DNA from: Antedon mediterranea | Taxonomy: Eukaryota > Animalia > Echinodermata | Reading direction: 5' to 3' | NCBI RefSeq assembly: GCF_964355755.1 | Contig: NC_092678.1 | Span: 25,437,365 to 25,501,364, forward strand | DNA length: 64,000 nt | Part shown: positions 7,149 through 56,970 of the stretch, in pieces | How the letters are laid out: each line of letters begins with the position of its first letter | Position numbering within the stretch: position 1 is the stretch's first letter | Position numbers and translations under genes: made by a program | Notes under the pieces: generated by a model | Database searches by the model: none | The model's input: only the letters and a program-made list of their open reading frames with translations | What the model was told of the DNA's origin: nothing

Positions 7149-8951
7149 TTACAGAGTACAAACCACGCAAGATAGCTCAAGATTATCTCCATACACCGAA
7201 CAATTCAATCCACCACCAGATTGATTGCATTTTCCCTCAACGAGGAACAACGTACTGGCTTCATCATCAGGAAATTGCGGACGGGCGCCATTACTATCAG
7301 GAACAACAGACTGGTTTTCATCAACGCATATGAACTCTGTACGCTTACGGTCGTCCCGAGAGGTCATTAAATATCCATCATATTCTTTAGTCCAACCGTT
7401 TGGACATTCTGTAACAGCTGGCATCATAAGTGTGACACTTCGTGGGGCTTGACAAACGGCACAAGGAACGTCATAATTGTGATTGTTCTTTAGCGGACTA
7501 AACTTCAAATCTCCGTACCTGTATTCTGTACCATAAACTGACCCTCTTTCGGTTTGAGATAATCCTACCGTAAACCTGTATTGTGGGTTGTCAGTCAGAC
7601 AGAGATAGTTTGCACCACTCCCACTTGAACCGTATGGTGGCCCTGCTGTCCTACCTAGGATTGTTAAGAGTTTTAAAATGCAGGAAATGGGATCATAGAC
7701 AATATAACAAATAAACAATATAGAAATTTAAAAGGAGCAATAATAATAAAATGTAAGAAAATACAACAAAAGCAAAATCATGGATGGTTGAATTGGCAGT
7801 GATGATTCAATAAGGTTTAATTTTATTTATTAAACCTTGTTTAAAGGGGTAACAAAGAAAAACAAAGAACTAAACAATTTACCTTTGTAGATCAATTCCG
7901 CAGTATTAGGACAGTTGGTACGCCCCCAACGAGTGAATAGAGTAATTTTAGTAGACTCAGGAACTGTGGGAACAAAGTAACAAAAACATGTAAATGTTGT
8001 ATTGATACTAAATACACAATTTATGATTTAATTTTTATTGAGGGCTTTGAATGATATAAAGACTGTGCTTGCCTCTGTGGTGTACCACAAAACATCTGAA
8101 CAAGCTAACCCAGCCTGTGCTTGCCTCTGTGCTGTACCACAAAACATCTGAACAAGCTAACCCAGCCTGTGCTTGCCTCATGTGCTGTACCACAAAACAT
8201 CTGAACAAGCTAACCCAAACCTTCCCTTTTGTATAAACTAATTTAAGACTAAACAAAGCAGCAATAGATGTTACTTTGTTTTAAAAATCTAACCCTACTG
8301 TTTAAGGATGATGATAAAATATTATTTACGTTGCCTGTATCATTGGTGTTCTGATATTGTTATTCAATATACTGTCCTGGTATGAAGCTTACCTTTAATT
8401 TGTGAATTTGGACCCGGCTTTAACACGTTTTCCTAAATTAAAGGCAACAAAATTAATAATCAATAACAATAATTTTAACGTCACATGCATATATAAAGCT
8501 TTTCAAATTGCAATGACCTAGAACAAAGTATTGTGTCTGGAATCTGCCAAAATTGTGTCAAAAAATCTTCTACTATAAAGTGTGTCACAATGTTCCTGTA
8601 TTTTCACAATAAATCAAACATAACATCTAAGCTTGCAAATCGAAAACCCTATTATTCTCAGCTGATCACATCTAAACTTACTTCGATTCTCGTAAGATGC
8701 TCAATGAAGGATTTCTGTGACTGGATAGTCATGATACTGAAAACTGCTACTACAATACATACAAGAATGACACATGCAACGGCAATACCAAGTGAAACAT
8801 GGTGTTGCTTCTGCTGTACAACCACCACTTGTTTTCCAGGAGGAACTGTATCAACATCACTATATTGACACTTGGCTATTCCTTTCTCTGTACTCTGGGT
8901 CCCCTCATTGCTCATTACTTCCATATACATATTATTATCCATCTCTGCCAT
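7149..8951 (-). CDS. Copy A: type II TM protein with short-chain collagen C4-like (NC1-related) ectodomain, intact, about 298 aa
   Basis: Exons 8951-8682 (YMEV, YSDV, TM VSLGIAVACVILVCIVVAVFSIM), 8432-8393, 7963-7883 (FTRWGRTNCP) and 7654-7149 (GSGANYLCL...DVPCAVC...CPNGWTKEYDGYLM...EFICVD...ELSCVVCT); canonical splice sites and consistent phases. Confidence 0.85.
8063..8217. repeat. About 51-bp tandem repeat, 3 copies, in intron 2 of copy A
   Basis: tgtgcttgcctctgtgctgtaccacaaaacatctgaacaagctaacccagcc; only one unit in the paralogous intron of copy I (about 55660-55715). Confidence 0.85.
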
Positions 8952-9789
8952 TCTTTGATTCTTTTTGTTGTTTGTCTGTCCCCACTAACAGTATTTATAC
9001 AAACAGCTAAACCGCATATTGAGGAACATCAAACTATTTAGCCTAATTTATAGGTAATAATGTGTAATTACTTATTGTACGTAGATTTTTTGTTTATACT
9101 ACATTAAAACAATGGATTTCCTCACTTCTACTAAAATGACCACAACACATTTTTTTTAAAGAGTTTTAATAACACACTAAAATGTGGTATATCAAGATTA
9201 AATTACTAGTTGGCATCTGTACATCCGTAGATTAATTTCCGATCGGATATTTGACACAAATTGAAATAAATTCTCAATTTTAATATACAATAATATCAGT
9301 TTTTGTTTGTTTTCTATGAAACATAATTTTGTGGTTCTTCTACAGGTAATGATTAGTTTTGATATAAAGTTTGCGGTACAGTATATTATAAAACTGGAGA
9401 ACGATCAAAGCAGAATGGCGTGATGTCTGAGTCTCGGTTTGTTTTTTTTTTGGCATGGTTGGAATGCCTTTTATTGTATTAGTTTATGTACAGCGCTAGG
9501 TTTCACAACATTAGGCGCTATATAAATCTAGGATATTATTATTATTATTATTATGTAGTACAATACTAACAGTAGTAAATTAAAAATCAATAATTAATTT
9601 CTTAGAAGGATGATGTTAATATAATATTTAAATAATAATTAATGGTTAATATTTCAAATATAATTGTATTACAGTATGATTATTAATAGATTTTTGTTTT
9701 ACGATTAACACATTTGTTCTTGAACCTGCTTCTTTGCTGTTTGTAGAACTACGTCTGTACTGCCTAAGGACAAACAACATAAGGAGGAA
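8952..9789. promoter_or_regulatory. Divergent intergenic region between copies A and B; TATA box for A
   Basis: Head-to-head ATGs with 838 bp between them; gtataaatactg on the minus strand at about 8990-9001, also present upstream of copies E, F, G and I. Confidence 0.5.
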
Positions 9790-11392
9790 ATGACACAGGA
9801 GGAAAATGTGTATATGGAAGTAATAGCCGGTGAGGAGATACAGAGTACAGAGAAAGGAATAGGCAAGTGTCAATATAGTGATGTAGATGCAGTTCCTCCT
9901 GGAAAACAAGTGGTGATTGTACAGCAGAAGCAACACCATGTTTCACTTGGTATTGCCGTTGCATGTGTCATTCTTGTATGTATTGTAGTAGCAGTTTTCA
10001 GTATCATGACTATCCAGTCACATAACGTAAGTGGGGTGCAATTATGACAGAAAACATTACAATACCTGTAAGTAGTATTGACAGCATGTTGTTGACAATG
10101 GTTACTAATGATGTACATGTAGTAGATCAGACAGTGGTTGTAAAAACAGGTTACCTATGTCAAGTACATAATTGACTAGATATAATAGAAATAACTTAAA
10201 CCAAATTTTAACATCTTGTATATTATAATATTTTTTTTGGCTTTAATCTAGGAAAAAATATGTTCACAAACTAAAGGTAGGCTTTTTTATACCCGTAAAA
10301 CACAATATTAAATAAGGTAAATAAAGGTTCAGCCCCTAGAATATGACAGTTTTAATTAATTAGCTGAGATCTTTTCCTCTTCAATAATATGAATGTGAGT
10401 GGCCGAGTGCTTAAAGACAGTGGAACCGTAACCCGGCCATAACATCGGCAGGGGTTCGAGGCTCACTCACTCTATGGTCTTCTCAGATATAAGAACTATA
10501 AACCGTATTTCCAGTGTACACACATGGTGTACATGGTCAACCAGTGTGGGGATCAAAACCCAGAATCGCAAATAATTTTGTATTAAAATTTAAATGATAA
10601 CAATTTTTTAAATTAATTTATAGTTTATACTTTATACACACGTTGGGGGCGCATGGATTGTCCAAGTACTGCTGAATTAGTATACAAAGGTATTTAAATA
10701 AAATGTTTTATTTAAAAATAAAATTGTAATTTTTGAAAAAATATCATGTTATTTTGAATATTCATCAGAAGATGATACTATGTCTTTGCAGAACATTGTA
10801 AATGATACCTATCAAAGTTTTGAGGTAATATTATATTGTATTATAATCCAATATTTAGGGTTTATTTATATTTCTAGGTGTCATGTCTGGTGCACCACAT
10901 ACCGGTAGTAATACTGGGAGTGGTGCAAACTATCTTTGTTTACCTGACCAACCACGATACAAATTCACAATGGCAGGCTATCAAACCACAAGGGGATCAA
11001 TCGCTGCTGTGGAATTCAGAGAATCAACAAAAATGTTCCAACCAACAAAAAAACTCCATGGTTTAAACTTTCCTTGCGCCGTTTGTCAAGCCCCACGAAG
11101 CGTCTCGTTACTTTTGCCAGCGGATACCGAATGCCCAATTGGTTGGATTACAGAGTTTAGCGGATACATGATGGCTTCTAAAAAGAACGAAAAACGTGCA
11201 GAATACGTCTGCGTAGATGAAAGTCCATCTTACATAAAGGGTAGACCTAATGCCGGTGATGCGGATGGGGTATCGGCCAGCTTTCTATTTCTTGTTGAGG
11301 GCCGATGCAATGCAGAAAATGTAGTTGGAGGGTTGCCTTGTCCACCGTATGTTGATGGTTATGAGTTGACTTGTGCAATTTGTACACAGTAA
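9790..11392 (+). CDS. Copy B: type II TM C4-like domain protein, intact, about 280 aa
   Basis: Exons 9790-10026, 10252-10276 (EKICSQTK), 10624-10689 (YTRWGRMDCP) and 10878-11392; all in frame with GT-AG sites. Confidence 0.88.
10397..10535 (+). mobile_element. tRNA-derived SINE family in intron 2
   Basis: A-box-like gtggccgagtgcttaa and B-box-like ggttcgaggct; copies at about 13060-13197, 32838-33590 (interrupted), and on the reverse strand at about 31200-31445 and 44950-45220. Confidence 0.65.
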
Positions 11393-14300
11393 TTTACTTT
11401 CCTTCGACACTGTATTGGTGATACTGGTGTCATAAGGTCCAATTTGTATTCTTCATTTTTATTGGTTTGTTGCAAGGGGTCTTGCGCAAACTTGTGTAGT
11501 TTGTACTCTGTATAAATTCACCTCTTGGAAGTTAACCTCTATAAATAACGAATATCATACTGCACTTTCTTAAAAAGATGTATATAATAGAATTTTGATG
11601 GTAAAGGTAAAATATTTATTCTGGTTCTCAAGCTTAAATTTGGGTTAGGCCTTCTGCGGACCCACAGCAGCCTACTACTTTGTTTGGCTATCTCCCATCA
11701 GGCTTCCCAGGATCTGTTCCATAGTGCTAAACAAATGTTTGATACAGTATAAAAGATTATAGGCCCTACAGGCATAGTCTAGCCTAGTAATAATAATGCT
11801 ATTTCCAGGTGCACTAGACTGCTATGAATTATTTAAAATGTTTTTTATATCTTGTATGTTTTCTATATCTACATGCTTTTCTTGCTTTGACATAATATTT
11901 TGTTTACTATATCATTAACAAAGTTATTAAAAAATTTCTGACGCAAAACCACTATTTTCATAAATTGTTTTTATTGTTTTACAATAAAATATGAATAGTT
12001 AAACACCTTTAAAAACTTGATAAATACCACAACAAAATTGGTCTTTCTATGGACCAGAGATTCCGAAATAAAGGATTGAATTGAATTGAATTATCGCAAT
12101 TAAAGAAAACACTAACCACTCTATTTCAAGTTGTTTCAGAAATAATATCCATATACCGGTACCTTTAAAAAACACATGAACACTGGCGTCTCTTAGACTC
12201 CAACAGAAGACATTTTAAAGGGCATTAAATTGAATTCGGTGTCAATGTTATTTTGTTGTGACTATTAATATTTTATGTATTTCTTAGAAGGATGAGTGCT
12301 TAATATTTAAAATATTATTGTTTTAAAGTATTACAGTATGATTATCTAAAAATGTTTGTTTTACGATTAACACATTTGTTGTTGAACCTGCTTCTTTGCT
12401 GTATGTAGAACTACGTCTGTACTGCTTAAGGACAAACAACATAAGGAGGAAATGACACAGGAGGAAAATGTGTATATGGAAGTAATAGCCGGTGAGGAGA
12501 TACAGAGTACAGAGAAAGGAATAGGCAAGTGTCAATATAGTGATGTAGATGCAGTTCCTCCTGGAAAACAAGTGGTGGTTGTACAGCAGAAGCAACACCA
12601 TGTTTCACTTGGTATTGCCGTTGCATGTGTCATTCTTGTATGTATTGTAGTAGCAGTTTTCAGTATCATGACTATCCAGTCACATAACGTAAGTGGGGTG
12701 CAATTATGACAGAAAACATTACAATACCTGTAAGTAGTATTGACAGCATGTTGTTGACAATGGTTACTAATGATGTACATGTAGTAGATCAGACAGTGGT
12801 TGTAAAAACAGGTTACCTATGTCAAGTACATAATTGACTAGATATAATAGAAATAACTTAAACCAAATTTTAACATCTTGTATATTATAATATTTTTTTT
12901 GGCTTTAATCTAGGAAAAAATATGTTCACAAACTAAAGGTAGGCTTTTTTATACCCGTAAAACACAATATTAAATAAGGTAAATAAAGGTTCAGCCCCTA
13001 GAATATGACAGTTTTAATTAATTAGCTGAGATCTTTTCCTCTTCAATAATATGAATGTGAGTGGCCGAGTGCTTAAAGACAGTGGAACCGTAACCCGGCC
13101 ATAACATCGGCAGGGGTTCGAGGCTCACTCACTCTATGGTCTTCTCAGATATAAGAACTATAAACCGTATTTCCAGTGTACACACATGGTGTACATGGTC
13201 AACCAGTGTGGGGATCAAAACCCAGAATCGCAAATAATTTTGTATTAAAATTTAAATGATAACAATTTTTTAAATTAATTTATAGTTTATACTTTATACA
13301 CACGTTGGGGGCGCATGGATTGTCCAAGTACTGCTGAATTAGTATACAAAGGTATTTAAATAAAATGTTTTATTTAAAAATAAAATTGTAATTTTTGAAA
13401 AAATATCATGTTATTTTGAATATTCATCAGAAGATGATACTATGTCTTTGCAGAACATTGTAAATGATACCTATCAAAGTTTTGAGGTAATATTATATTG
13501 TATTATAATCCAATATTTAGGGTTTATTTATATTTCTAGGTGTCATGTCTGGTGCACCACATACCGGTAGTAATACTGGGAGTGGTGCAAACTATCTTTG
13601 TTTACCTGACCAACCACGATACAAATTCACAATGGCAGGCTATCAAACCACAAGGGGATCAATCGCTGCTGTGGAATTCAGAGAATCAACAAAAATGTTC
13701 CAACCAACAAAAAAACTCCATGGTTTAAACTTTCCATTAGGAGAACGAGCCCTATTTAGCGTGAGCTTTTGCCTCTGGCATCTTACTTGTTTATTTTTGC
13801 CTAAAGCCAGTCATTAATGTCTTAGGCAATTAATAAATCACGTAACACCTTGTTCATCTTCCAGGCTCAGCCTTCCTTGCTTCTGATTGGCTGCAATGCA
13901 CAGCCTATTTTGGAATTGGTCACTCATTGTATTTAGAAACCACCATTATACCATGGGTAAATTTTTTGCACACAAAATTAAAGAATGCAAGTGGCCTTGT
14001 GGTTAGCAAGGTCAGTTCTAATCTAACAGCAGGGAGCCAAAGAATGAACTGTAGAGATGAGTTTAAAATAAAAATTTGTGTTTTGTGCACCCAGACTAAA
14101 ATCGCTGGAAAAGCAAAAACTTTTGTTTTGAAATTAAAACTATATTTATAAACTATTTCATGTTCTTCAGCTGAGATCTCAAAATGATCTCTATGGATTT
14201 GCCACCCCTCTAATGTTAAATATATAGGCCTATAATAAATAGTACAGTAATACTATTTCAAATTATAAGCAAACAATTAAATACTGTATTTTATAATCAT

Positions 14301-14460
14301 ATTTTATATAATAGTTACTTTATGTCTCAATTATAAACCCCTTTTCTTGAGTATACCCCAATTGTATGCACATTTATGGAGGAAATATATATTTATGTTT
14401 TTCTCAATACATAATAGTTCAGTTTTTTTTTCACATTAATGTGAAATTTGTTTGTCTAAG

Positions 14461-15764
14461 CATGGATTAAAGAATAGAAGGATATGCATCGACGTGAGAT
14501 CAAGGGTTCCTTGACTCTCGCCGACAGACCGCGGACCGCCCACAATGTTACAGTTTAATTAACCGCATGGTAACAACGAAACGGTCGCGTGCCTAATATA
14601 TTGTTTACTGCACATGTGCAACGACATTTAACCTTGTTGGCTACTACGCTTCTTTCGCGCGTTCTTTGGTGGCATGATGTTTGTAGATGGTCAACTATTG
14701 ACTATGTTGGTTTCTGCCGCGATTGATCTACGCTAATGATTTTTTTATGATGATTAAAGTAGCATTTTATGACCTGTAGTAGCCCTACATCTGAGACAAT
14801 AACTATTAGTTGTCTCATTTGTTGTAAAATTACAAAATCAGCAAGAATGCTAGCCTAGCTAGGCCCAGGCCTTGTACTAACTAGGCTAAACTGGGCTAGT
14901 AAACCCTATGATTTGCCGACATTGATACTGCCTAGGTAGGCCTAGGCTAATCTTAAATACTCACCGTTGTCTTACTTCTTGTGTGAATAATAATAATAGG
15001 TAGGCCTACTTCGTTTGTTCGTGATCAAGTTTGCCCTGCGTGTACTTTTCAAAACGACCGCTAGGTAACGAATCGCAACTATACATAGCCAGCCAATCCC
15101 GGATCAGGGATCGCTGTTTTCATTCAATTAGGCCCGGTGATTGGATGTGATGTGGATGACATAACCACTAGCCAATCACCAGGCACTACAGTTTAAATAT
15201 AATCACATCGATAATTAAGGAGATTTATGAAGAAACCACTGCTTAGCCATATATTAAAAAACACGATTGTTGTATGTCTGAACACCGGCCACGCTAACAA
15301 CATACATGGTCAAATGCATAATTTAATATTCTATAGATTAACGCAATTTTTAATGACAGAAGATGGCAGGCAAATAATGATAATTCAAATATAAAAATGG
15401 CATATTTTATTAATATTACCAACTACCTAAAATTACCAGTCGTAAGAAAGTGAACTTTTCGTAGTCCGATTGTGATGAAACTAAAACAGAATTATTCAGC
15501 AATATATGTTTGTTATCAATTAATCATCGACGCAGACATGTCAATAGAACATTCAGACTGCGCATACGATTTCTACATGGTTACGTTTTGGTCTCAAAAA
15601 ATGTAACAGTTGATTCGCAGCGTTTTACAGAGGGCCGCGGTTAGAGACACGGAGTTCAATGAACGTGTTTGTTTGATTGGCAGCAGTGCTTTAGTATAGG
15701 CAAGCGCGTTGTAAAATCGTTTGATGTCACCGTCGATGCATATCCTTCTATTCTTTAATCCATG
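14461..15764. mobile_element. P-superfamily-like non-autonomous element, 1304 bp, copy 1
   Basis: 34-bp TIR catggattaaagaatagaaggatatgcatcgacg, CA...TG ends, 7-bp TSD gtctaag. Confidence 0.85.
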
Positions 15765-16756
15765 GTCTAAGTTGTGTGAAGTAATGATACCAAAAATGTT
15801 AACTCCTAATTGTAACTCCTGAATTGTAATCAATAGATTAGGTCTAAGTAAATATTAAAAAATGGTTGTTAATGTTACAGATGGAACATTTTTGTTATAG
15901 GCCAGGATATCATTATTTTAACGATTAACTAAAAAATCAGATACTGTAATTAATACACTGAATAAAATCTGTATGCATGTTATATATTTATTTTAATTTG
16001 AAAATTAACAATTGCCATGTAAACATATATTATGGGCCTAATTTGAATTAAATTTTATAGAGTATATATTCTTAAAAAATTCCTGTCCGTTAAAAAACAA
16101 GGCCAACAGCCATTAAGTCGCGTGCTACAATGCATAGTGATACCGGACCGACCGACAGACAGACCGACAGACCGACTGACATAGGGCGCGTTTATACAAC
16201 ACGCTATTACACGCATATTCTACACGCCTACGAGAAGTGTGTTGTATAACAACAAAGAGATTCCGTGTAATGAGATTTTAATTGCAAAAAAGGCTACTTG
16301 GCTGAATCCTAAAATTTGGTGGATTCCCGGTCGCCGTTACCGTGTTGGAAGTGTCCTCAGGGTATATTTTGACCGCTCGTTAAAACAGGTCGTAATATCA
16401 ATCATGTCATGCGACGTCTAACAAGATTGGGCCCATTTATTGCTGCTTCGCTGCCAGCAATCATCCTCCTACCACGTCTTACGCCTAGCCTGGTTGGGCC
16501 AACCAACTCGTAGTGGTAGTAGGCCTCTATAGACTATCGTTTCCCACTCCAAACAGAATAAAAAATAACATCGCAAAAATGGCATCTTCTTCCATAGTGT
16601 ATAGATGAAATAATGAAACCCTTAAAATAACTTTTATTAATTTAAATGAACCGAGAACAAATAAACAACAATGCAAACGTGAACGAATACAATAATGAAA
16701 ATGGTAAAAACCGCGCGAATACATCGGACAGCGAGGAGAGGCGACGATGATTGTTG

Positions 16757-16780
16757 CAGGGAGTTGTTGACAACTCCCTG
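16757..16780. mobile_element. 24-bp palindromic P-like footprint
   Basis: cagggagttgt-tg-acaactccctg flanked by 7-bp duplication attgttg. Confidence 0.65.
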
Positions 16781-17099
16781 ATTGTTGACAACCCAGCCAA
16801 CAATTCAATTCAAGCGATCAACGATTTGACCTTTTATCCTAGCATGCACTGCGTGTTGATGAAACTTCCGGTACAACACGGTATCGTGATTTCTAGTATA
16901 ACAGCAAACGTTAAGGTGGGTTGACCTCGGTCCGAACAACACGCTAAAAATTAAAGCCGTGTTCAAATTTAGGGTGTTGTATAAACACGACCATAGTGAA
17001 CTACTGAACATGTGTAAAAATGTTGAAATGTTTAAAAACATTTATATTTTTTTAATTTACACGTGCGTAGCCTGTCACTTTTGACGTGCTCATATAACG

Positions 17100-17642
17100 T
17101 AATTTCTAGTTGAAAAGTAAGTCAAGAAAACAGAAATCGGGCAAAAAGAGTGCGCAATAACATTTAACGCGCAGTGCGCGCGCAAAAATCTGCGCACTCA
17201 TGGCAATTTTGTAAACGCTTAAAATTGCCTGAAACGTACTCTTATTTCATCGAAAATAAATTTTGAAAATTTTAAGCGCGCGTACGCATGCGTTACATGC
17301 GCTACGCACGTAATTGTATTGCCATATAATGATTTATGCCCTGAAATTTATGAGTACCAAATTTTATTTAATTGTGATTCATGGTTGTGAAGATATGATT
17401 ACAAACGTGATTTCGTTAAATCGTGCGTAGACCGCGTAATTTTTTATTGCGCACCGTGAAAACATAACCACATCGATTCCTGGCCATAAGGAATATACTG
17501 TGAAAAATTGACTTAGCTAGATTAAACTGATATCAAGATAAGGTCAGAAAGCGATAACATGCATGGTGATACCGGACCGACAGACAGACGGACCGACCGA
17601 CTGACATAGTGAACTATAGAGTCGCGTGCACGCGACTAAAAA
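17100..17642 (-). mobile_element. Helentron/DINE-like non-autonomous element (left boundary approximate)
   Basis: Minus strand begins tttttagtcgcgtgcacgcgactctata (palindrome) followed by a (gtcg/gtct)n microsatellite; a related fragment lies at about 16115-16185. Confidence 0.55.
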
Positions 17643-17705
17643 TGTGAACCTGCATAATGCGATAAAGTATTGTTGGCACATATATTAAATCCCGTCACAG
17701 TATTA

Positions 17706-18991
17706 TCTTGTATCCTTTAACATTTGGAATGAGTTGGTGCATGGTAAGATATAGGAATATGGATTATGAAGGGGATGAAAAAACGTGAAAAAGATAGCAC
17801 AATTTCTCAAATAGGTATACCGTACGTACAATTTCTCAAAGAAGTAGCACAACTTTCGTAATGGATTGCACAATTTCTCAAAGAGGTAGCACAATTTCCC
17901 GAATGGTTAGCACAATTTCTCAAAGAGGGAGCACAATTTCTCAAATGGTTAGCACAATTTCTCAAAGAGGTAGCACAATTTCCCGAATGGTTAGCACAAT
18001 GTCTCAAAGAGGTAGCACAATTTCCCAAATGGTTAGCACAATTTCTCAAAGAGGTAGCACAATTTCCCGAATGGTTAGCACAATTTCTCAAAGAGGTAGC
18101 ACAATTTCCCGAATGGTTAGCACAATTTCTCAAAGAGGTAGCACAATTTCCCAAATGGTTAGCACAATTTCTCAAAGAGGTAGCACAATTTCCCGAATGG
18201 TTAGCACAATTTCTCAAAGAGGTAGCACAAAATCTCCCGAAAGGATTGCATAATTTCTCAAAGAGGTAGCACAATTTCCCAAATGGTTAGCACAATTTCT
18301 CAAAGAGGTAGCACAATTTCCCGAATGGGTAGCACAATTTCTCAAAGAGGTAGCACAATTTCCCGAATGGGTAGCACAATTTCTCGAATGGTTAGCACAA
18401 TTTCTCAAAGAGGTAGCACAATTTCCCGAATGGTTAGCACAATTTCTCAAAGAGGTAGCACAATTTCCCGAATGGGTAGCACAATTTCTCAAAGAGGTAG
18501 CACAATTTCCCGAATGGTTAGCACAATTATTTCTCAAAAAGGTAGCACAATTTCCTGAATGTTGCATATTGCACAATTTCTCAAAGAGGAGCACACTTTC
18601 TCAAATGTAGGTAGCACAATATTTCGTGATTGTATGACCACAATTGTACTGGGAAGGTTTTAAACTATATTTAAAAAAATCACAGTGTGCAGAGGTTAGA
18701 GGGGTTGGAGGCTTAGTGATTTGCTGGGGTTAGTATCAATGACCACATGAGTAATGTGAACTGGGGGTATGTTTTAACTGCATTTGAAAACCGTCATAAA
18801 GCCGGGGTGTGCAATAGAATTTGTACCAGGAAGTTTAACATTATAAGTTAAAAAATCCCCGAGTGCGGGTGTGTGTTGGGGAGGTGGGTGCATTTTAGGG
18901 CATCTGGATAATGAGTTATCAAATGATCGGGAATGTACTGTGAAGTTTTAAAACTACATAGGAAACCCGCCCGGGCGTGTATAATTGCTAG
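17706..18991 (+). mobile_element. Helitron-like element carrying a 21/42-bp satellite array
   Basis: Possible 5' A|TC start at 17706; 3' hairpin cgcccgggcg shortly upstream of CTAG|T at 18988-18992. Confidence 0.55.
17795..18622. repeat. Minisatellite of alternating 21-bp units (42-bp dimer)
   Basis: tagcacaatttctcaaagagg / tagcacaatttcccgaatggt repeated over about 830 bp. Confidence 0.95.
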
Positions 18992-19384
18992 TCATCAATG
19001 TTTTAAAATACTAGAGTGCTAAAGTGAACATAATGTATGTAGGCCTATGTGCAGTTTTCTTAGAATAACATAAACAACTAAAATGAGGCATAATCCCTCT
19101 ATTATAATATCGTATAACATCAACTTGTTATTACACAATAAAAAAGATTGTTATTTATATGGGTTTCGTTTATGTTTATTAACATTCATTCAATTACATT
19201 TTTTTAAATAAAAAGATTTATTTTTTAGATTTTTTAGTATTATTAATTAATTCATATATCTGGTCCTATATACTAATATAGCGCAAACACTTTTTGGGAA
19301 GCGTATGGGTACCACCCCCTACGGCTACATTATTTTATTTGAATTTCCCGCTCATATTCTCAAAAATTGTAGGCCTACCTATAC

Positions 19385-19414
19385 CAGGGAGTTGTTATTA
19401 ATAACAACTCCCTG
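19385..19414. mobile_element. 30-bp perfect palindrome, P-like footprint
   Basis: cagggagttgttatt-aataacaactccctg flanked by 7-bp duplication cctatac. Confidence 0.7.
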
Positions 19415-21362
19415 CCTATACCTCAGCCCGAGTCTGATGTGATGGTGTACCTCTTGACATCCCTACCAAATCCCATCGCACCATCCCAGTTTATTTCAGA
19501 ATCCATTTGTAGTAGGCTATGTATTTCATTGGTAAATTAATAAAATTAAAATTATTCAATTGTAATTGGTTGATCGCTTGACTACTCAATCTAAGGTTGA
19601 ACTTTGTAGCTCCCCATACAATGTTGTTAAAATGTACAAAATCGAAAAGGAAACATGGAAATAAAGGCTTACTTAAATAATTATAAGGCGTGAAAAGGCT
19701 ATTATATAAATATTCATTTATTTCATGAAATCAAACTATTACCTAATCATTAAAACATGCTGTAACTGAAACCTGATGCTGTCGGTGATTGGCTGTTGGC
19801 AAACAAAGTGGGCTTGGCCTCTTTTAGTACCCAGATACTTTCCTGCATGATTGATGGCCACTGTTCTGTTAATTACCCATCAACAAGACTGATCAGGGTC
19901 AAAACAATTACAGGCAATTATAGTACCCCGGGTTAGGCGGGGTACTAAAAGCTCACGTTAAATAGGGCTCGTTTTCCTAATGCCTTGCGCCGTTTGTCAA
20001 GCCCCACGAAGCGTCTCGTTACTTTTGCCAGCGGATACCGAATGCCCAATTGGTTGGATTACAGAGTTTAGCGGATACATGATGGCTTCTAAAAAGAACG
20101 AAAAACGTGCAGAATACGTCTGCGTAGATGAAAGTCCATCTTACATAAAGGGTAGACCTAATGCCGGTGATGCGGATGGGGTATCGGCCAGCTTTCTATT
20201 TCTTGTTGAGGGCCGATGCAATGCAGAAAATGTAGTTGGAGGGTTGCCTTGTCCACCGTATGTTGATGGTTATGAGTTGACTTGTGCAATTTGTACACAG
20301 TAATTTACTTTCCTTCGACACTGTATTGGTGATACTGGTGTCATAAGGTCCAATTTGTATTCTTCATTTTTATTGGTTTGTTGCAAGGGGTCTTGCGCAA
20401 ACTTGTGTAGTTTGTACTCTGTATAAATTCACCTCTTGGAAGTTAACCTCTATAAATAACGAATATCATACTGCACTTTCTTAAAAAGATGTATATAATA
20501 GAATTTTGATGGTAAAGGTAAAATATTTATTCTGGTTCTCAAGCTTAAATTTGGGTTAGGCCTTCTGCGGACCCACAGCAGCCTACTACTTTGTTTGGCT
20601 ATCTCCCATCAGGCTTCCCAGGATCTGTTCCATAGTGCTAAACAAATGTTTGATACAGTATAAAAGATTATAGGCCCTACAGGCATAGTCTAGCCTAGTA
20701 ATAATAATGCTATTTCCAGGTGCACTAGACTGCTATGAATTATTTAAAATGTTTTTTATATCTTGTATGTTTTCTATATCTACATGCTTTTCTTGCTTTG
20801 ACATAATATTTTGTTTACTATATCATTAACAAAGTTATTAAAAAATTTCTGACGCAAAACCACTATTTTCATAAATTGTTTTTATTGTTTTACAATAAAA
20901 TATGAATAGTTAAACACCTTTAAAAACTTGATAAATACCACAACAAAATTGGTCTTTCTATGGACCAGAGATTCCGAAATAAAGGATTGAATTGAATTGA
21001 ATTATCGCAATTAAAGAAAACACTAACCACTCTATTTCAAGTTGTTTCAGAAATAATATCCATATACCGGTACCTTTAAAAAACACATGAACACTGGCGT
21101 CTCTTAGACTCCAACAGAAGACATTTTAAAGGGCATTAAATTGAATTCGGTGTCAATGTTATTTTGTTGTGACTATTAATATTTTATGTATTTCTTAGAA
21201 GGATGAGTGCTTAATATTTAAAATATTATTGTTTTAAAGTATTACAGTATGATTATCTAAAAATGTTTGTTTTACGATTAACACATTTGTTCTTGAACCT
21301 GCTTCTTTGCTGTTTGTAGAACTACGTCTGTACTGCTTAAGGACAAACAACATAAGGAGGAA

Positions 21363-22943
21363 ATGACACAGGAGGAAAATGTGTATATGGAAGTAATAGC
21401 CGGTGAGGAGATACAGAGTACAGAGAAAGGAATAGGCAAGTGTCAATATAGTGATGTAGATGCAGTTCCTCCTGGAAAACAGGTGGTGGTTGTACAGAAG
21501 CAACACCATGTTTCACTTGGTATTGCTGTTGCATGTGTCATTCTTGTATGTATTGTAGTAGCAGTTTTCAGTATCATGACTATCCAGTCACATAACGTAA
21601 GTGGGGTGCAATTATGACAGAAAACATTACAATACCTGTAGTAGTATTGACAGCATGTTGTTGACAAAATATGATTACTTAGTAGATCAGACAGTGGTTG
21701 TAAAAACAGGTTACCTATGTCAAGTACATAATTGGCTAGATATAATAGAAATAACTTAAACCAAATTTTAACATCTTGTATATTACAATACTTTTTTTGG
21801 CTTTAATCTAGGAAAACATACGTTCACAAACTAAAGGTAGGCTTTTTTATACCCTTCAAACACAATATTAAATAAGGAAAATAAAGGTTCGGTCCCTTTA
21901 CAAATCTCATATATTTATTTATTATTTATTTACTTGATGTGTATAGAAGGCTGCTATGAATGCTAACCCTAAAAAAAGAAGACCAGGCTCCTATGCTGGG
22001 TTGTAAATGGGACTAAAATTTGCTTTGCAAATTGTCCCAGCTTAGGTGGAGCTAGCAGTCAGAGCATGATGTTGTGTGATCTGTAAAACTGAATAATTGG
22101 TTGTCTTGTTGTTTGACTTGAAATCAATTTAAAAAAAATGATCAGTCATGGTCGATCAGCGAGGGGATCAAAACCCAGAATCGCAAATGATCTTGTATTA
22201 AAATTTAAATGATATTAAATAATTTTGTTAATTTATAGTTTATAGTTTATACACACGTTGGGGGCGTATGTATTGTCCAAGTACTGCTGAATTAGTATAC
22301 AAAGGTATTTAAATAAAATGTTTTAAAATGTAATGAAGATACTATGGCTTTGCAGAACATTGTAAATAATACTTATTAATGTTTTGAGGTAATACTATAG
22401 TCCAATATTTAGGGTATATTTATATTTCTAGGTGTGATGTCTGGAGCACCACATAATGATAATGGGAGTGGTACAAACTATCTTTGTTTACCTGACCAAC
22501 CACGATACAAGTTCACAATGGCGGGCTATCAAATCACGAGAGGATCAATTACTGCTGTGGAATTCAGGGAATCACAAAAAGACTTTAAACCAACAAAAGA
22601 TCTCCATGGTGTAAACTTTCCTTGCGCCGTTTGTCAAGCTCCACGAAGCGTCTCGTTACTTTTGCCAGCGGATACTAAATGCCCAATTGGTTGGATTACA
22701 GAGTTTAGCGGATACATGATGGCTTCTAGAAAGGACGAAACACGTGCAGAATACGTCTGTGTAGATAAAAGTCCATCTTACATAAAGGGTTCAGATAAAC
22801 CTGATGGTGATGCGGACTGGGAAATGGCCAGCAGGCTATTTCTTGTTGAGGGCCGATGCAATGCAGAAGCTGCAGTTGGAGGGTTGCCTTGTCCACCTTA
22901 CGTTGATGGTTACGAGTTGACTTGTGCAATTTGTACACAGTAA
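21363..22943 (+). CDS. Copy D: type II TM C4-like domain protein, intact
   Basis: Exons 21363-21596, 21812-21836, 22239-22304 and 22432-22943; ectodomain type with ...GDADWEMASR... Confidence 0.88.
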
Positions 22944-25003: not shown

Positions 25004-25167
25004 ACTGTAGAACCCCCTCTTAGGGACCCCCTATAAGGGGACACTTTCTAGTTAAATAAACAATGGATAATAGATGTTTTAAAACTAGGGCCAACTGCTA
25101 TTCAGGGGACACCTCTCTTGTTGTGGTTTCAAAGGTGTCCCCTTACAGTACCAACGGTTCTACTGTA
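25004..25167. mobile_element. Small Tc1/pogo-like MITE remnant
   Basis: Inverted ends tactgtagaacc...ggttctactgta with internal aggggacacc/ggtgtcccct. Confidence 0.5.
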
Positions 25168-40499: not shown

Positions 40500-40774
40500 C
40501 TATAACACTTATTGTCTTACAACACTGTTATTGTTTTAACTACTGTAAATCTATACGAAGGCCTACTACACATTTATTATATTATCCTAAAAAATGAGCT
40601 GGTATCGCGTAGGTTGAAGAAATTGTAATTGTGGCTCTGGTAACTAATTTTAAAATCATATTAAATTAACATTTTCGAAACTATAAATCAGGGATAATCT
40701 TTTTAAAACTTTCAAACAAGGGACTATTTTTTTAATGATTTTTAAAAAGCACATCACTCCATTAATTATGTATG

Positions 40775-45971: not shown

Positions 45972-47726
45972 ATGGCAGAGGAGATGGATAGTATGTATAT
46001 AGAAGTAACAGCCAGGGAGGAGATACAGAGTAAAGAGAAAGGAATGGCCAAGTGTCAATATAGTGATGTTGATGCAGTTCCTCCTGGAAAACAAGTGGTG
46101 GTTGTACAGCAGAAGCAACACCATGTTTCACTTGGTATTGCCGTTGCATGTGTCATTCTTGTATGTATTGTAGTAGCAGTTTTCAGTATGATGACTATCC
46201 AGTCACATAAATCCTTCATCGAGCATCTTACAAGAATCGAAATAAGCAGGTACAATTTGACTGAATACATTACAATGCCTAAAGGTAGGCTTTTTTTTTA
46301 TACTCTTTAAACAGAAGTTTTAACAAACTTGCTGCAATTTTTTTTTAAGATCTCAGATATTTAAAAAAATGTTTTTTCCTCTTTAATAATGAAGGTGATT
46401 TACTTGATGTGTATAGAAGGCAGGTATAAATGCACTGCAAAGTGGAATACCAGGCTCTTATTGGGTTGTAAATGGGACTAAAATGTGCTCTGTCAAATTG
46501 TCCCAGCTTAGTTAGAACTTCAAAATAGCAGTTATAGTTACAAGCCAAGCAGGAGTGCATACAAAACGAAGACTTTTTTTTTATGTTATTCAAATTATAA
46601 AACAAAGGCTAACACAATGACACAATTTCGAACTTTTCAGAAATTTGGGTACGAGATAATCAAGGATCTTCATTTTGTATGCCCCCATATAAGATGTGTA
46701 CAAAACGAAGACCCTTGATTATCTCGCACCCAAATTTCTGAAAAAGTTCGAAATTGTGTTATTGTGTTAGCCTGGTGTGTTATTCAAATAAAATAATTTT
46801 TGGTTCTTCGGTCTTCGTTTTGTATGCACCCCCAAGCAGGATGTTGTGTGGTCTGTAACTAATTTGATTATAATTGGTTGAATTTGAAATTAATACAAAA
46901 AAAATGATCGGCCAAATGTCAACCAGGGATCAAAATCAAGAATCGCAAATAATTTTGTATTAACATTATAAATCATTTTTGTAAAATTTATAGTTCATAC
47001 TTTATACACACGTTGGGGGCGCATGGATTGTCCAAGTACTGCTGAATTAGTATACAAAGGTATTTTAATAAAATATTATTTAAAATAAAATTGTAATTTT
47101 TGAAAGAAAAATAATATCAATTTGAGTATTCATCAGTAAATGAAGATGATACCTATCAAGGTAATATTATATTATAGTCCCAATATACAGTATAGGGTTT
47201 ATTTATATTTCTAGGTGTCATGTCTGGTGCACCATCGAGTGATACTGGGAGTGGTACAAACTATCTTTGTTTACCTGACCAACCACGATACAATGTTACA
47301 ATGGCTGGCTATCAAGTGCCAAGAGGATCAATTTCTGCTGTGGAATTCAGGGAATACACAAAAACGTTTAATCCAACAAAACATCTCCATGGCCTAAACT
47401 TTCCTTGCGCCGTTTGCCAAGCCCCACGAAGCGTCTCGTTACTTTTACCAGCGCATACTAAATGCCCAATTGGTTGGATTACAGAGTTTAGTGGATATAT
47501 GATGGCTTCTGCAAAAATCCAAAAACGTGCAGAATTCGTCTGCGTAGATGAAAGTCCATCTTACATAAATGGTTCAGATAAACCTGATGGTGATGCAGAC
47601 GATCAATCGGCCAGCAAGCTATTTCATGTTGAGGGCCGATGCAATGCAGAAGCTGCAGTTGGAGGGTTGCCTTGTCCACCGTATGTTGATGGTTACGAGT
47701 TGACTTGTGCAATTTGTACACAGTAA
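45972..47726 (+). CDS. Copy G: type II TM C4-like domain protein, intact 3-exon variant
   Basis: Exon 1 is 45972-46284 (donor GTAAGT changed to ATAAGC, read-through to AAAG|gtaggc), then 46994-47059 and 47215-47726; frame preserved. Confidence 0.8.
46552..46832. mobile_element. 280-bp palindromic MITE in the first intron of copy G
   Basis: TIR gg(a/g)gtgcatacaaaacgaagac, internal inverted repeat of about 60 bp, flanking duplication caagca. Confidence 0.75.
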
Positions 47727-48864: not shown

Positions 48865-48914
<50 letters not shown>

Positions 48915-51630: not shown

Positions 51631-53250
51631 ATGACACAGGAGGAAAATGTGTATATGGAAGTAATAGCCGGTGAGGAGATACAGAGTACAGAGAAAGGAA
51701 TAGGCAAGTGTCAATATAGTGATGTAGATGCAGTTCCTCCTGGAAAACAAGTGGTGATTGTACAGCAGAAGCAACACCATGTTTCACTTGGTATTGCCGT
51801 TGCATGTGTCATTCTTGTATGTATTGTAGTAGCAGTTTTCAGTATCATGACTATCCAGTCACATAACGTAAGTAGGTGCAATTATGACAGAAAACATTAC
51901 AATACCTGTAGTAGTATTGACAGCATGTTGTTGACAAAATATGATTACTTAGTAGATCAGATAGTGGTTGCAAAAACAGGTTACCTATGTCAAGTACATA
52001 ATTGGCTAGATATAATAGAAATAACTTAAACCAAATTTTAACATCTTGTATATTACAATACTTTTTTTGGCTTTAATCTAGGAAAACATACGTTCACAAA
52101 CTAAAGGTAGGCTTTTTTATACCCTTCAAACACAATATTAAATAAGGAAAATAAAGGTTCGGTCCCTTTACAAATCTCATATATTTATTTATTATTTATT
52201 TACTTGATGTGTATAGAAGGCTGCTATGAATGCTAACCCTAAAAAAAGACCAGGCTCCTATGCTGGGTTGTAAATGGGACTAAAATTTGCTTTGCAAATT
52301 GTCCCAGCTTAGGTGGAGCTAGCAGTCAGAGCATGATGTTGTGTGATCTGTAAAACTGAATAATTGGTTGTCTTGTTGTTTGACTTGAAATCAATTTAAA
52401 AAAAATGATCAGTCATGGTCAATCAGCGAGGTCAATCAGCGAGGTCAATCAGCGAGGTCAATCAGCGAGGGGATCAAAACCCAGAATCGCAAATGATCTT
52501 GTATTAAAATTTAAATGATATTAAATAATTTTGTTTAATTTATAGTTTATAGTTTATACACACGTTGGGGGCGTATGTATTGTCCAAGTACTGCTGAATT
52601 AGTATACAAAGGTATTTAAATAAAATGTTTTAAAATGTAATGAAGATACTATGGCTTTGCAGAACATTGTAAATAATACTTATTAATGTTTTGAGGTAAT
52701 ACTATAGTCCAATATTTAGGGTATATTTATATTTCTAGGTGTGATGTCTGGAGCACCACATAATGATACTGGGAGTGGTACAAACTATCTTTGTTTACCT
52801 GACCAACCACGATACAAGTTCACAATGGCGGGCTATCAAATCACGAGAGGATCAATTACTGCTGTGGAATTCAGGGAATCACAAAAAGACTTCAAACCAA
52901 CAAAAGATCTCCATGGTGTAAACTTTCCTTGCGCCGTTTGTCAAGCTCCACGAAGTGTCTCGTTACTTTTGCCAGCGGATACTAAATGCCCAATTGGTTG
53001 GATTACAGAGTTTAGCGGATACATGATGGCTTCTAGAAAGGACGAAACACGTGCAGAATACGTCTGTGTAGATAAAAGTCCATCTTACATAAAGGGTTCA
53101 AAAAAATCTGATGGTGATGCGGACTGGGAAATGGCCAGCAGGCTATTTCTTGTTGAGGGCCGATGCAATGCAGAAGCTGCAGTTGGAGGGTTGCCTTGTC
53201 CACCTTACGTTGATGGTTACGAGTTGACTTGTGCAATTTGTACACATTAA
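51631..53250 (+). CDS. Copy H: type II TM C4-like domain protein, intact, near-duplicate of D
   Basis: Exons 51631-51867, 52082-52106, 52546-52611 and 52739-53250. Confidence 0.88.
52417..52470. repeat. 13-bp tandem expansion (ggtcaatcagcga, 4 copies) in intron 2 of copy H
   Basis: Single unit in the paralogous intron of D at about 22150. Confidence 0.85.
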
Positions 53251-55125: not shown

Positions 55126-56970
55126 ATGGCAGAGATGGATAATATGTATTGTAGTAGCAGTTTTCAGTATGATGACTATCCAGTCACATAAATCCTTCAT
55201 TGAGCATCTTACGAGAATCGAAGTAAGTTTAGGTGTGATCAGCTGAGAATAATAGGACTTTCGATTTGCAAGATTAGATGTTATGTTGATTTATTGTGAA
55301 AATACAGGGACATGGTGACGCACTTCATAGTAGAAGATTCTTTGACACAATTTTGTCAGTTTCCAGACACAATAATTTATAATTTGAAAAGCTATAACAT
55401 CATGCATGTGATGTTAACATTATTGTTATTGATTATTAATTTTGTTGCCTTTATATTAGGAAAACGTGTTAAAGGGTGCAAATTTACAAATTAAAGGTAA
55501 GCTTTATACCAGGACAGTATATTGAATAATAATATCAAAAACACCAAGGAATACAGGCAATGAAATAATATTACGGTAGGGTTAGATTTTTAAAACAATG
55601 TAAAATATATCTATATTTCTGCTATGTTTGTCAATTATTTTTATACCATAGGAAAAAGTCTGGTTAGCATGTCCAGATGTTTTGCTTTGTGTACAGCACA
55701 GAGGCAAGCACAGTCTTTATATCATTCAAAGCCCTAAATTAAATCATAAATTGTGTATTTAGTATCAATACAACATTTACAGGTTTTTGTTACTTTGTTC
55801 CCATAGTTCCTGAGTCTACTAAAATTACTCTATTCACTCGTTGGGGGCGTACTGATTGTCCTAATAGTGCGGAATTGATCTACAAAGGTAAATTGTTTAG
55901 TTCTTTGTTTTTTTCATATATGATTGTTTTAATATATGTTTTTATGAATGCCCTGGCTTGATTTTCAGCATATGCTGTTTAGGGTAACCCCCTTTAAACA
56001 AGGTTTAAAGATATATTTTTTACATTTTTTGTTGTTGAATATGCCATTTTATTGTCACATAATAGTTATCCACTTTGAAAAAAAAATAGAAAAATATTTA
56101 TTTACCTGAAAAAACTGTAATTTAAAGCAAAATATAGTCAAATAGGCTGCTAGCCAATGGGTTTTTGGTTGAATTTGACCATTTATTTGTCATTTAATAT
56201 GAGAAAACGTTATTTTTTTTGGTTTTTTTTTTCACGGAGGGATTAACTTTATTAAAACTACAAAATAACCTATTCAAAATCTGATTTAGTTAGTCTTCAT
56301 TTTTCATGTTTTTGGGGGACAATACATATTTAATAAATTAAATTAAACCTTATTGATAGTTTCTGTATTATTATTGTTTATTTGTTATATTGTCATTATC
56401 TATGATCCCATTTACTACATTTGAAAAATAAACCTAATTAGTGGTAAACTCTTAACAATCCTAGGTAGGACAGCAGGGCCACCATATGGTTCAACTGGAA
56501 GTGGCGCAAACTATCTCTGTCTGACTGACAACCCACAATACAAGTTTACGGTAGGATTATCTCAAGTCGAAAGAGGGTCAGTTTATGGTACAGAATACAG
56601 GTACGGAGATTTTAAGTTTACTCCACTGAAGGACAATCACTTCTATGATGTTCCTTGTGCCATTTGTCAAGCCCCACGAAGTGTCACACTTATGATTCCA
56701 GCTGTTACAGAATGTCCAAACAGTTGGACTAAAGAATATGATGGATATTTAATGACCTCTCGAGACGACCGTAAGCGTACAGAGTTCATCTGCGTTGATG
56801 AAAACCAGTGTCTTGTTCCTGGTAGGGATAGCGCCCGTCGGCAACTTCCTGATACAGAAGCCAGTACGTTGTTCCTTGTTGAGGGAAAATGCAATCATTC
56901 TGGTGGTGGATTGAATTGTTCGGTGTATGGAGATAGTCTTGAGCTATCTTGCGTGGTTTGTACTCTGTAA
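55126..56970 (+). pseudogene. Copy I: A-type ectodomain with a frameshifting deletion of the tail and most of the TM in exon 1
   Basis: Exon 1 (55126-55222) lacks 167 nt relative to F, between two tatgtat repeats, giving MAEMDNMYCSSSFQYDDYPVT*; exons 55460-55496, 55807-55887 and 56465-56970 remain open. Confidence 0.8.

What the first reader, a model, noticed from the sequence alone, without database searches (positions are those of the whole stretch)
7149..56970. Nine-copy cluster of collagen-free, membrane-anchored C4/NC1-like domain proteins with tyrosine motifs: a candidate new invertebrate receptor family
Seen: every intact copy splices to a cytoplasmic tail of about 50 aa with Y(M/I)EV-x17-YSDV, one TM, a tiny stalk and a C-terminal domain with the short-chain collagen C4 signature (Y/FTRWG, GSG(A/T)NYLCL, PCAVC, CPxGW, EY/FxCVD, ELxCxxCT). 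There is no signal peptide and no Gly-X-Y run. Established: this domain is usually annotated in secreted short-chain collagens related to collagen IV NC1, whereas type II topology with YxxL/V tails in tandem birth-and-death clusters typifies NK-complex C-type lectin receptors (Ly49, NKG2, Dectin). Inference: a matrix-derived oligomerisation fold has been reused as a diversified cell-surface recognition receptor for immunity, allorecognition or fertilisation. I cannot confirm novelty without a database search.
Basis: partly seen in the sequence, partly recalled or inferred. Interest (0 to 1): 0.85.

Follow-up and report, generated by a model that had tools for sequence, protein, structure and literature searches.

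The report
Membrane-tethered collagen caps with tyrosine tails
A feather-star DNA stretch holds nine copies (six intact) of a gene that joins the end-cap domain of sponge-type short collagens to a predicted membrane anchor and a two-tyrosine tail, which likely makes these proteins untested cell-surface recognition receptors built from a matrix-protein part.

Summary
In Antedon mediterranea there are nine loci: six intact genes and three broken ones. Each intact gene encodes a ~50-aa tail with YxEV-x17-YSDV, one hydrophobic helix, a short stalk and a ten-cysteine domain. Three models equal RefSeq proteins, and one RNA-like run shows the membrane exon spliced to the domain exons. The domain is the spongin short-chain-collagen NC1; its only fold matches are collagen IV NC1.

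Membrane-anchored, collagen-free forms are not unique to this cluster. They occur in another crinoid, a brittle star, a sea urchin, amphioxus and a bryozoan, and a single origin is rejected (AU p=0.005). The tail is found only in Antedon, and the crinoid relatives elsewhere lack the motifs. The motifs are not canonical ITIM, hemITAM or ITAM, and the ectodomains show no positive selection. In favour: Y-x-E-V stays fixed in an otherwise drifting segment, and unrelated membrane forms are modestly enriched in YxxPhi (7 of 16 tyrosines, p=0.014).

Best reading: a likely type II recognition receptor with a recently acquired phosphotyrosine tail (0.45). Ten paper searches found no description of the membrane form; the family's founding paper could not be read. 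New variant of a known kind.

The parts
7149..8951 (-). Copy c1, intact, type A ectodomain. Exons 8951-8682 (tail+TM), 8432-8393, 7963-7883, 7654-7149; 298 aa; TATA box near 9000
   Evidence: RefSeq model P0271 has the same exons 2-4 but a transposon-derived 5' end
9790..11392 (+). Copy c2, intact, type B. Exons 9790-10026, 10252-10276, 10624-10689, 10878-11392; 280 aa; head to head with c1
   Evidence: joints 10026>10252 and exon 3>4 in run X1; first 260 aa in P0268
12452..20303 (+). Copy c3, broken: exons 12452-12688, 12914-12938, 13286-13351 and 13540-13734, then the insertion, then the rest of exon 4 at 19983-20303
13735..19982 (.). About 6.2-kb insertion with imperfect terminal inverted repeats (likely a DNA transposon); supplies 5' exons to the RefSeq models of c1 and c4
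21363..22943 (+). Copy c4, intact, type B. Exons 21363-21596, 21812-21836, 22239-22304, 22432-22943; 278 aa
   Evidence: contained in P0269
32218..34425 (+). Copy c5, intact, type B. Exons 32218-32457, 32683-32707, 33675-33740, 33911-34425; 281 aa; TATA box at 32174
   Evidence: identical to P0001 = XP_071960293.1
36327..36624 (+). Copy c6, orphan tail+TM exon cut by a repeat insertion; TATA box at 36260
45972..47726 (+). Copy c7, intact, type B, three exons 45972-46284, 46994-47059, 47215-47726; 296 aa; likely a chimera of a c5-type 5' block and a c6-type stalk
   Evidence: identical to P0002
51631..53250 (+). Copy c8, intact, type B. Exons 51631-51867, 52082-52106, 52546-52611, 52739-53250; 279 aa
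   Evidence: identical to P0270
55126..56970 (+). Copy c9, type A, likely pseudogene: a 167-nt deletion in exon 1 removes most of the tail and TM and shifts the frame; exons 55460-55496, 55807-55887 and 56465-56970 are open
   Evidence: RefSeq P0003 starts at a downstream Met
9722..9746 (+). Splice acceptor standing where c1, c5, c6, c7 and c9 have a TATA box (also at 12408, 21319, 51587); receives an in-frame splice from a donor in the previous copy's exon 4 (11346, 20257)
   Evidence: joint 11346>9747 in run X1; RefSeq fusions P0268, P0269, P0012

Best explanation
These genes encode a spongin-type NC1 domain joined to one membrane helix and a two-tyrosine tail, and the proteins likely work as type II cell-surface recognition receptors whose tail would be phosphorylated and would recruit SH2-domain proteins. 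Shown here: the anatomy, the splicing, the fold and the birth-and-death cluster. Predicted: N-terminus inside and the disulfide-rich domain outside, retained in the membrane because the stalks have no furin site. Inferred and untested: the NC1 heads cluster (probably as trimers, as in the collagen-bearing relatives), bind a surface or matrix ligand through four variable segments, and bring the tails together. A Src/Syk-type kinase would then phosphorylate Y(M/I)EV, which has acidic residues upstream, and YSDV; with tyrosines 21 residues apart, the pair would dock a tandem-SH2 protein such as an SHP-type phosphatase. History, inferred: crinoids already had a tyrosine-free membrane form; the Antedon lineage gained this tail, and recent gene conversion or exon exchange spread one tail+TM exon over two old ectodomain types.
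For: Splicing and anatomy. Fold: AF2 model with mean pLDDT 81.6, disordered tail, helix 51-83; only collagen IV NC1 matches, Z 7.6-8.3, rmsd 4.2-5.3 A over 151-158 residues. No R-x-K/R-R site in any crinoid stalk, whereas 5 of 5 amphioxus TM forms have one. Ectodomain types A and B differ by dS 1.1-1.4 but share a tail+TM exon at dS 0.04-0.11. In the N-terminal tail segment, pooled over four tail types, about 23% of nonsynonymous and 23% of synonymous sites differ, yet Y, E and V are 3 of only 4 invariant columns of 20 (post hoc p about 0.03). In 11 non-crinoid TM forms, 7 of 16 tail tyrosines are YxxPhi against 2.9 in shuffles (p=0.014). 30 of 40 variable ectodomain positions fall in four segments covering 68 of 170 residues (segments chosen after seeing the data). 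Precedent in crinoids: a collagen-free C1q head acts as a lectin (OXYL, PMC6409975 abstract). Precedent for paired non-canonical YxxV motifs: Botryllus FcoR receptors (PMC12582321 passages).
Against: The tail was found only in Antedon. Crinoid relatives P0014-P0017 have no tail tyrosine and P0013 has no YxxV. No motif meets the ITIM or hemITAM definitions. YSDV lies in a homogenised tract, so its conservation is no independent evidence. For the P0001 tail alone, two YxxPhi is not beyond chance (p=0.064). No pN/pS above 1 in the ectodomain. The c2-type copies have an acceptor in place of the TATA box and are annotated as read-through fusions; RefSeq's c1 model skips the TM exon. No ligand, tissue or induction data exist here, and RNA support is one run of guessed type.
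Confidence: 0.45

Rival explanations
1. Endocytic capture (scavenger-type) receptor: the NC1 head binds a ligand such as a glycan, collagen fragment or microbe, and the YxxV motifs are sorting signals for clathrin adaptors rather than phosphotyrosine docking sites.
For: Both motifs fit YxxPhi. The enrichment in unrelated TM forms is of plain YxxPhi, not of ITIMs. The motifs fail the canonical immune definitions. Type II endocytic receptors with tyrosine sorting signals are common (recalled).
Against: Val at +3 is a weak AP-2 signal, and acidic residues before the first tyrosine look like a kinase site (both recalled, not tested). A fixed pair 21 residues apart is not needed for endocytosis.
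Confidence: 0.25
2. Membrane-tethered matrix or adhesion protein: a structural anchor or decoy that co-assembles with secreted spongin-like collagens, with the tyrosines incidental.
For: The family is known only in matrix and secretory roles (PMC5395295, PMC12549020, PMC6626399 passages). The older crinoid TM forms lack tail tyrosines. Amphioxus TM forms carry collagen and furin sites like shed membrane collagens. No positive selection.
Against: Type B copies have replaced family-wide near-invariant residues (Tyr153, Gly154, Tyr157, Tyr204 in P0001 numbering; 83-98% conserved elsewhere) and sit on a long branch. YxEV is held fixed in a drifting segment. Rapid copy turnover is unusual for a structural anchor (inference).
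Confidence: 0.2
3. Mostly neutral expansion: one or two working genes sit in a transposon-rich, recombining region, and most copies are redundant or read-through by-products.
For: 3 of 9 loci are broken. Four copies lack the TATA box and take read-through splices. c2 and c3 are 98.6% identical in DNA, and c4 and c8 97.8% in protein. pN/pS up to 0.85 fits relaxed constraint.
Against: 6 of 9 loci keep full frames and all ten cysteines. Family-conserved positions show pN/pS 0.33-0.63. Both ectodomain types have been kept since dS above 1.
Confidence: 0.1

Closest known systems
Spongin short-chain collagens and related proteins (NCBI 'short-chain collagen C4-like'; PMC5395295 passages; Aouacheria 2006 seen only as a citation)
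   Same: C-terminal NC1 domain with ten cysteines, no HSQ motif, collagen IV NC1-like fold, no Pfam model; 38-50% identity to named members.
   Different: Described as a short triple helix plus NC1 in matrix. These proteins have no Gly-X-Y run, no signal peptide, an internal membrane helix and a tyrosine tail.
RefSeq proteins of Anneissia japonica XP_033105611.1 ('short-chain collagen C4-like'), XP_033104063.1, XP_033119838.1, and Antedon XP_071953196.1, XP_071960761.1
   Same: Same TM + short stalk + NC1 layout; one crinoid clade in the tree (SH-like 91; SH-aLRT 83).
   Different: Different or degenerate tails with no YxxPhi motif; no function is attached to them.
Collagen IV NC1 domain (PDB 1li1, 5naz, 1t60)
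   Same: Only fold match: Foldseek E 5.9e-6, VIA Z 7.6-8.3 over the whole ectodomain.
   Different: 14-19% identity, rmsd 4-6 A, no PF01413 hit, no triple helix.
NK-complex type II C-type lectin receptors (Ly49, NKG2A, Dectin-1, CLEC-2; recalled)
   Same: Predicted type II topology, short stalk, disulfide-rich head, tyrosine motifs in an N-terminal tail, tandem birth-and-death cluster.
   Different: The head is a spongin NC1 with no Lectin_C hit; the motifs are non-canonical; no positive selection found; no homology shown.
Botryllus fester co-receptors FcoR (PMC12582321 passages)
   Same: Invertebrate clustered receptors with paired non-canonical VYxxV 'core-2' motifs.
   Different: Type I Ig-superfamily proteins; motif pairs 29-33 residues apart; linked to a tested allorecognition locus.
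Collagen-associated globular heads reused for recognition: crinoid C1q lectin OXYL (PMC6409975 abstract); type II fibrinogen-domain receptor FIBCD1 and class A scavenger receptors (recalled)
   Same: The principle of a collagen end domain, freed from the helix, used for binding.
   Different: Different folds; OXYL is secreted; no ligand is known for any spongin NC1 in what I read.

Membership tests
Spongin short-chain-collagen-related family | C-terminal NC1 domain with ten cysteines (seven shared with collagen IV, three spongin-specific) | tested here: met
   10 Cys in each intact model; 8 invariant and 2 near-invariant over 117 sequences. Matched by count, not mapped one by one to the paper's figure (PMC5395295).
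Spongin short-chain-collagen-related family | No HSQ motif | tested here: met
Spongin short-chain-collagen-related family | NC1 fold related to collagen IV NC1 | tested here: met
Spongin short-chain-collagen-related family | Short Gly-X-Y triple helix | tested here: not met
   At most 2 triplets; no PF01391 on P0001. So these are NC1-domain relatives, not collagens.
Spongin short-chain-collagen-related family | Secreted through an N-terminal signal peptide | tested here: not met
   Highest 9-residue hydropathy in the first 30 aa is 0.88; the only hydrophobic peak starts after residue 45. Hydropathy only.
Collagen IV | Pfam C4 (PF01413) pair and long triple helix | tested here: not met
   No Pfam family for the domain at E up to 1 or for P0001 at 0.01
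NK-complex type II C-type lectin receptors | Type II single-pass topology | tested here: inconclusive
   One hydrophobic helix, a disulfide-type domain C-terminal to it and no signal peptide favour it; flanking charge is +1 to +2 before and 0 to +1 after, only weakly informative
NK-complex type II C-type lectin receptors | C-type lectin domain by sequence profile | tested here: not met
   No Lectin_C hit
NK-complex type II C-type lectin receptors | C-type lectin fold | tested here: inconclusive
   Not listed in the fold searches; absence from the list does not exclude it
NK-complex type II C-type lectin receptors | Canonical ITIM (I/L/VxYxxI/L/V) or hemITAM ([ED][ED][ED]xYxxL) | tested here: not met
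   Residue -2 is N, S or C, and residue +3 is V (definitions). c5 and c7 fit the looser SxYxxV form (recalled); the c2 type is hemITAM-like.
NK-complex type II C-type lectin receptors | Tandem birth-and-death cluster | tested here: met
   9 loci, 3 broken, chimeras and inversions
NK-complex type II C-type lectin receptors | Diversifying selection on the ligand-binding head | tested here: inconclusive
   pN/pS 0.66-0.85 at family-variable sites, none above 1; only three distinct type B haplotypes, so power is low
NK-complex type II C-type lectin receptors | Immune-cell expression, ligand binding, SH2 recruitment | not testable with these tools
   No tissue-resolved RNA or binding data
Shed type II membrane collagens (MACIT type; recalled) | Collagen domain and furin site in the stalk | tested here: not met
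   Neither is present in the crinoid proteins; both are present in amphioxus relatives P0069, P0071, P0233, P0260

The most novel reading that the evidence does not exclude
The spongin NC1 domain is an unrecognised invertebrate recognition module. It was anchored in the membrane several times independently (crinoids, other echinoderms, amphioxus, bryozoans and unnamed lineages) and repeatedly acquired tyrosine signalling tails. In Antedon it forms a paired-receptor cluster, with SxYxxV (inhibitory-like), EENVYxxV (hemITAM-like) and motif-less variants, convergent on the vertebrate NK receptor complex but built from a basement-membrane-collagen fold.
Probability: 0.25. Interest if true: 0.8.

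Novelty: new variant of a known kind. Interest (0 to 1): 0.5.

Why it matters
The spongin NC1 family is widespread in invertebrates, has no Pfam model, and is treated as structural matrix in every paper I saw. Membrane-anchored, collagen-free members with tyrosine tails suggest that the domain binds ligands and has been recruited as a receptor head, as the C1q head was. That would give a direct handle on what this domain does, and a new receptor scaffold for echinoderm immunity or cell recognition. The cluster offers ready tests: two ectodomain types on one tail, and three tail variants. The case is limited by the tail being confined to one genus so far and by the lack of any functional data.

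Tried and rejected
Tools that gave nothing:
- No whole genome is held for this window, so copies outside it were seen only as RefSeq proteins.
- Pfam found no family for the domain. PDB sequence searches gave nothing credible (0 hits; best E 0.07, unrelated).
- The ESM Atlas gave only sub-0.9 leads named short-chain collagen C4-like and nothing for the tail.
- No C-type lectin appeared in the fold lists; this does not exclude kinship.
- The run search listed no holder on record as RNA; X1 is a guess and also covers introns and intergenic DNA.
- The second read-laying (c7-c9) was swamped by repeats and showed no usable joints.
- A homotrimer prediction could not be run because the queue was full, so oligomeric state is untested.
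- Earlier findings of this scan: none by sequence or words; the 8 of 77 shown for this genome concern other loci.

Ideas rejected or withdrawn:
- Positive selection in the ectodomain: not found.
- A shuffled-in tail from another receptor family: no donor among proteins of 154-492 aa; longer and shorter proteins were not searched.
- Furin shedding of the crinoid proteins: no site.
- A single origin of all TM forms: rejected.
- My notebook idea of an intron-less paralogue is withdrawn: the letters between the joint match P0013, and the DNA runs give 'between: not known'.
- Assembly artefact as the source of the array: unlikely, because copies differ by private insertions and by 2-46% in protein, but not excluded for c2/c3.
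Full report
1. Source and observation. The window is 34% GC animal DNA. Its proteins match RefSeq entries of the crinoid Antedon mediterranea. A six-frame motif scan, self-comparison and splice-anchor search give nine loci between 7149 and 56970. Six have complete frames with GT..AG introns: c1 on the minus strand, and c2, c4, c5, c7, c8 on the plus strand, 278-298 aa. Three are broken: c3 is split by a 6.2-kb insertion with terminal inverted repeats, c6 is an orphan first exon, and c9 has a 167-nt frameshifting deletion. All six intact models have two tail tyrosines, Y(M/I)EV and YSDV, with 17 residues between the motifs. Each has one hydrophobic peak after residue 45, no early hydrophobic stretch and at most two Gly-X-Y triplets. 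Pairwise protein identity is 54-98%.

2. Is the membrane exon really joined to the domain? c5, c7 and c8 are identical to RefSeq predictions, c4 lies within one, and c2 shares its first 260 residues with one. In run X1 (RNA by guess only), contigs join 10026 to 10252 (GT..AG, 25 letters on the short side), exon 3 to exon 4 (GT..AG), a long exon 1 to exon 3 (56 letters), and exons 1-2-3 of the paralogue P0013. None of these joints is in runs X2 or X3. This is one run from one study, and it also covers introns. Against: RefSeq's c1 model starts in the transposon and skips the membrane exon. Five loci (c1, c5, c6, c7, c9) have a TATA box shortly before the ATG. In c2, c3, c4 and c8 the same position reads as a splice acceptor, which can take an in-frame splice from a donor in the previous copy's exon 4. 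That joint is in X1 and in RefSeq fusions P0268, P0269 and P0012. A fusion would lose the last two cysteines of the upstream domain and is probably a by-product (inference).

3. The domain. Pfam has no model for it, which agrees with PMC12749355 (passages): the spongin C-terminal domain matches neither PF01410 nor PF01413. It is abundant: 2361 representatives at E up to 0.001, many named short-chain collagen C4-like. It has ten cysteines and no HSQ, as PMC5395295 describes for spongin NC1 (passages). The AlphaFold2 model from a 117-row alignment has mean pLDDT 81.6, a disordered tail, a helix at 51-83 and a beta-rich domain. Among the Foldseek rows shown, all those with E under 0.02 are collagen IV NC1 (best E 5.9e-6, TM about 0.32-0.37). 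The wide VIA search found 2 of 48,161 chains at Z 2 or more, both collagen IV NC1 (Z 7.6, rmsd 4.2 over 151). The second look gave Z up to 8.3. These Z values are middling, but nothing unrelated competes.

4. How unusual is the architecture? Of 274 sequences, 218 were kept; multi-domain and short matches were dropped, and P0208, P0012 and P0269 were excluded by hand. A hydropathy rule called 69 signal-type (36 with six or more Gly-X-Y triplets, 33 without), 27 internal-TM and 122 unclassifiable. The sample is biased toward crinoid-like sequences. Of the 27 TM rows, 7 are window genes, 2 are other Antedon genes and 18 come from elsewhere: Anneissia (3), Amphiura (3), Diadema (1), Branchiostoma (5, four with collagen), Watersipora (3) and unnamed records (3). 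On a 47-row tree (22 TM, 25 signal-type, picked by me) the label changes 6 times, and holding all TM rows together is rejected (AU p=0.005, quick LG+G4 tree). Starred branches alone force only one change, so the number of origins is open. Crinoid TM forms make one clade with moderate support.

5. The tail. A search with residues 1-82 found only four Antedon clusters among proteins of 154-492 aa. The Anneissia proteins and Antedon P0015 have homologous membrane helices but different, tyrosine-free tails; P0013 keeps one tyrosine without the +3 valine. The motif pair is therefore young. Within the cluster, two old ectodomain types (c1/c9 against the rest, dS 1.1-1.4) share a nearly identical first exon (dS 0.04-0.11), which points to recent conversion or exon exchange. 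The first 24 codons differ among four tail types at about equal synonymous and nonsynonymous rates (about 0.23 pooled), yet Y, E and V stay fixed (3 of 4 invariant columns of 20; post hoc p about 0.03). YSDV lies in the homogenised part and gives no independent evidence. Across 11 non-crinoid TM representatives, 7 of 16 tail tyrosines are YxxPhi against 2.9 expected (p=0.014); for P0001 alone p=0.064. By the definitions in PMC12582321 (passages) neither motif is a canonical ITIM or hemITAM, though they resemble that paper's paired core motifs. The 17-residue gap is too long for an ITAM (recalled).

6. Diversification of the head. Among type B copies, 40 of 170 exon-4 positions vary, 30 of them in four segments chosen after inspection. 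pN/pS is 0.66-0.85 at family-variable sites and 0.33-0.63 at conserved sites; none exceeds 1. Type B has also replaced several residues that are 83-98% conserved in the family. This fits relaxed or shifted constraint, and does not show an arms race.

7. Mechanism. I favour a type II recognition receptor with a phosphotyrosine tail (0.45) over an endocytic capture receptor (0.25), a matrix tether (0.2) or a mostly neutral array (0.1). Anatomy, splicing, fold and cluster history are shown. Topology is predicted. Oligomer, ligand, phosphorylation, partner and tissue are inferred; the multimer prediction could not be run because the queue was full. The crinoid lectin OXYL, a collagen-free C1q head (PMC6409975 abstract), is a precedent for the principle, not evidence for this family.

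8. Literature and novelty. Ten searches found no paper describing a membrane-anchored spongin NC1 protein. Only 12 papers hold the phrase 'short-chain collagen C4'; I read passages of two, both treating it as matrix, and saw the rest only as listings. A review of echinoderm matrix never uses the word spongin (PMC10381214 passages). Nematostella spongin-like genes are reported mostly in neuroglandular cells (PMC12549020 passages). PMC5560861 and PMC10672478 were seen as passages. The founding paper (Aouacheria 2006) is not held and might mention such forms; no supplements were read. Statements on NK receptors, FIBCD1, MACIT collagens, AP-2 and kinase preferences are recalled.

9. Verdict. A real, well-formed cluster and an apparently undescribed membrane variant of a known domain family, with a lineage-specific tyrosine tail. 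The receptor function is plausible but untested. Novelty: new variant of a known kind. Interest 0.5.

Noticed in passing
protein P0127: A 3949-aa protein listed for the choanoflagellate Choanoeca perplexa carries nine tandem spongin-type NC1 domains and a TNFR cysteine repeat; unnamed P0128 has six. PMC5560861 calls spongins specific to invertebrate metazoans, so the domain may predate animals (contamination not excluded).
   Followed up: partly
protein P0134: A sea spider (Nymphon striatum) model holds two TM+NC1 units with furin-like sites, although PMC5395295 states that spongins are absent from ecdysozoans.
   Followed up: no
window 9722-9746, 12408, 21319, 51587: A TATA-box position has turned into a splice acceptor in four copies, allowing in-frame read-through splicing from the previous copy's last exon.
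   Followed up: partly
window 13735-19982: The insertion in c3 supplies 5' exons in both directions in RefSeq models (to c1 on the minus strand, and an ATG for the c3-half/c4 fusion); part of it (14457-15770) recurs at 39192-40505 with 99.8% identity.
   Followed up: partly
window 28701-30770 and 42446-44487: A 2-kb inverted duplication (96%) next to a 1.7-kb direct duplication of the c5 promoter and first exon at c7; likely the trace of the event that orphaned c6.
   Followed up: no
window 48986-50722 (-) and 63126-63725 (-): Reverse-transcriptase (RVT_1) open frames of LINE-like elements.
   Followed up: no
window 17828-18620 and 61723-63094: 21/42-bp minisatellite arrays that give long open frames on both strands; not genes as far as tested.
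   Followed up: no
proteins P0092, P0125: Unnamed proteins from another branch of the family have the same tail-TM-short stalk-NC1 layout, with two YxxI/V motifs in an 80-residue tail: the closest independent parallel to the Antedon design.
   Followed up: partly
proteins P0069, P0071, P0233, P0260: Amphioxus type II membrane collagens ending in a spongin NC1, with furin sites: candidates for a shed membrane-collagen class.
   Followed up: no
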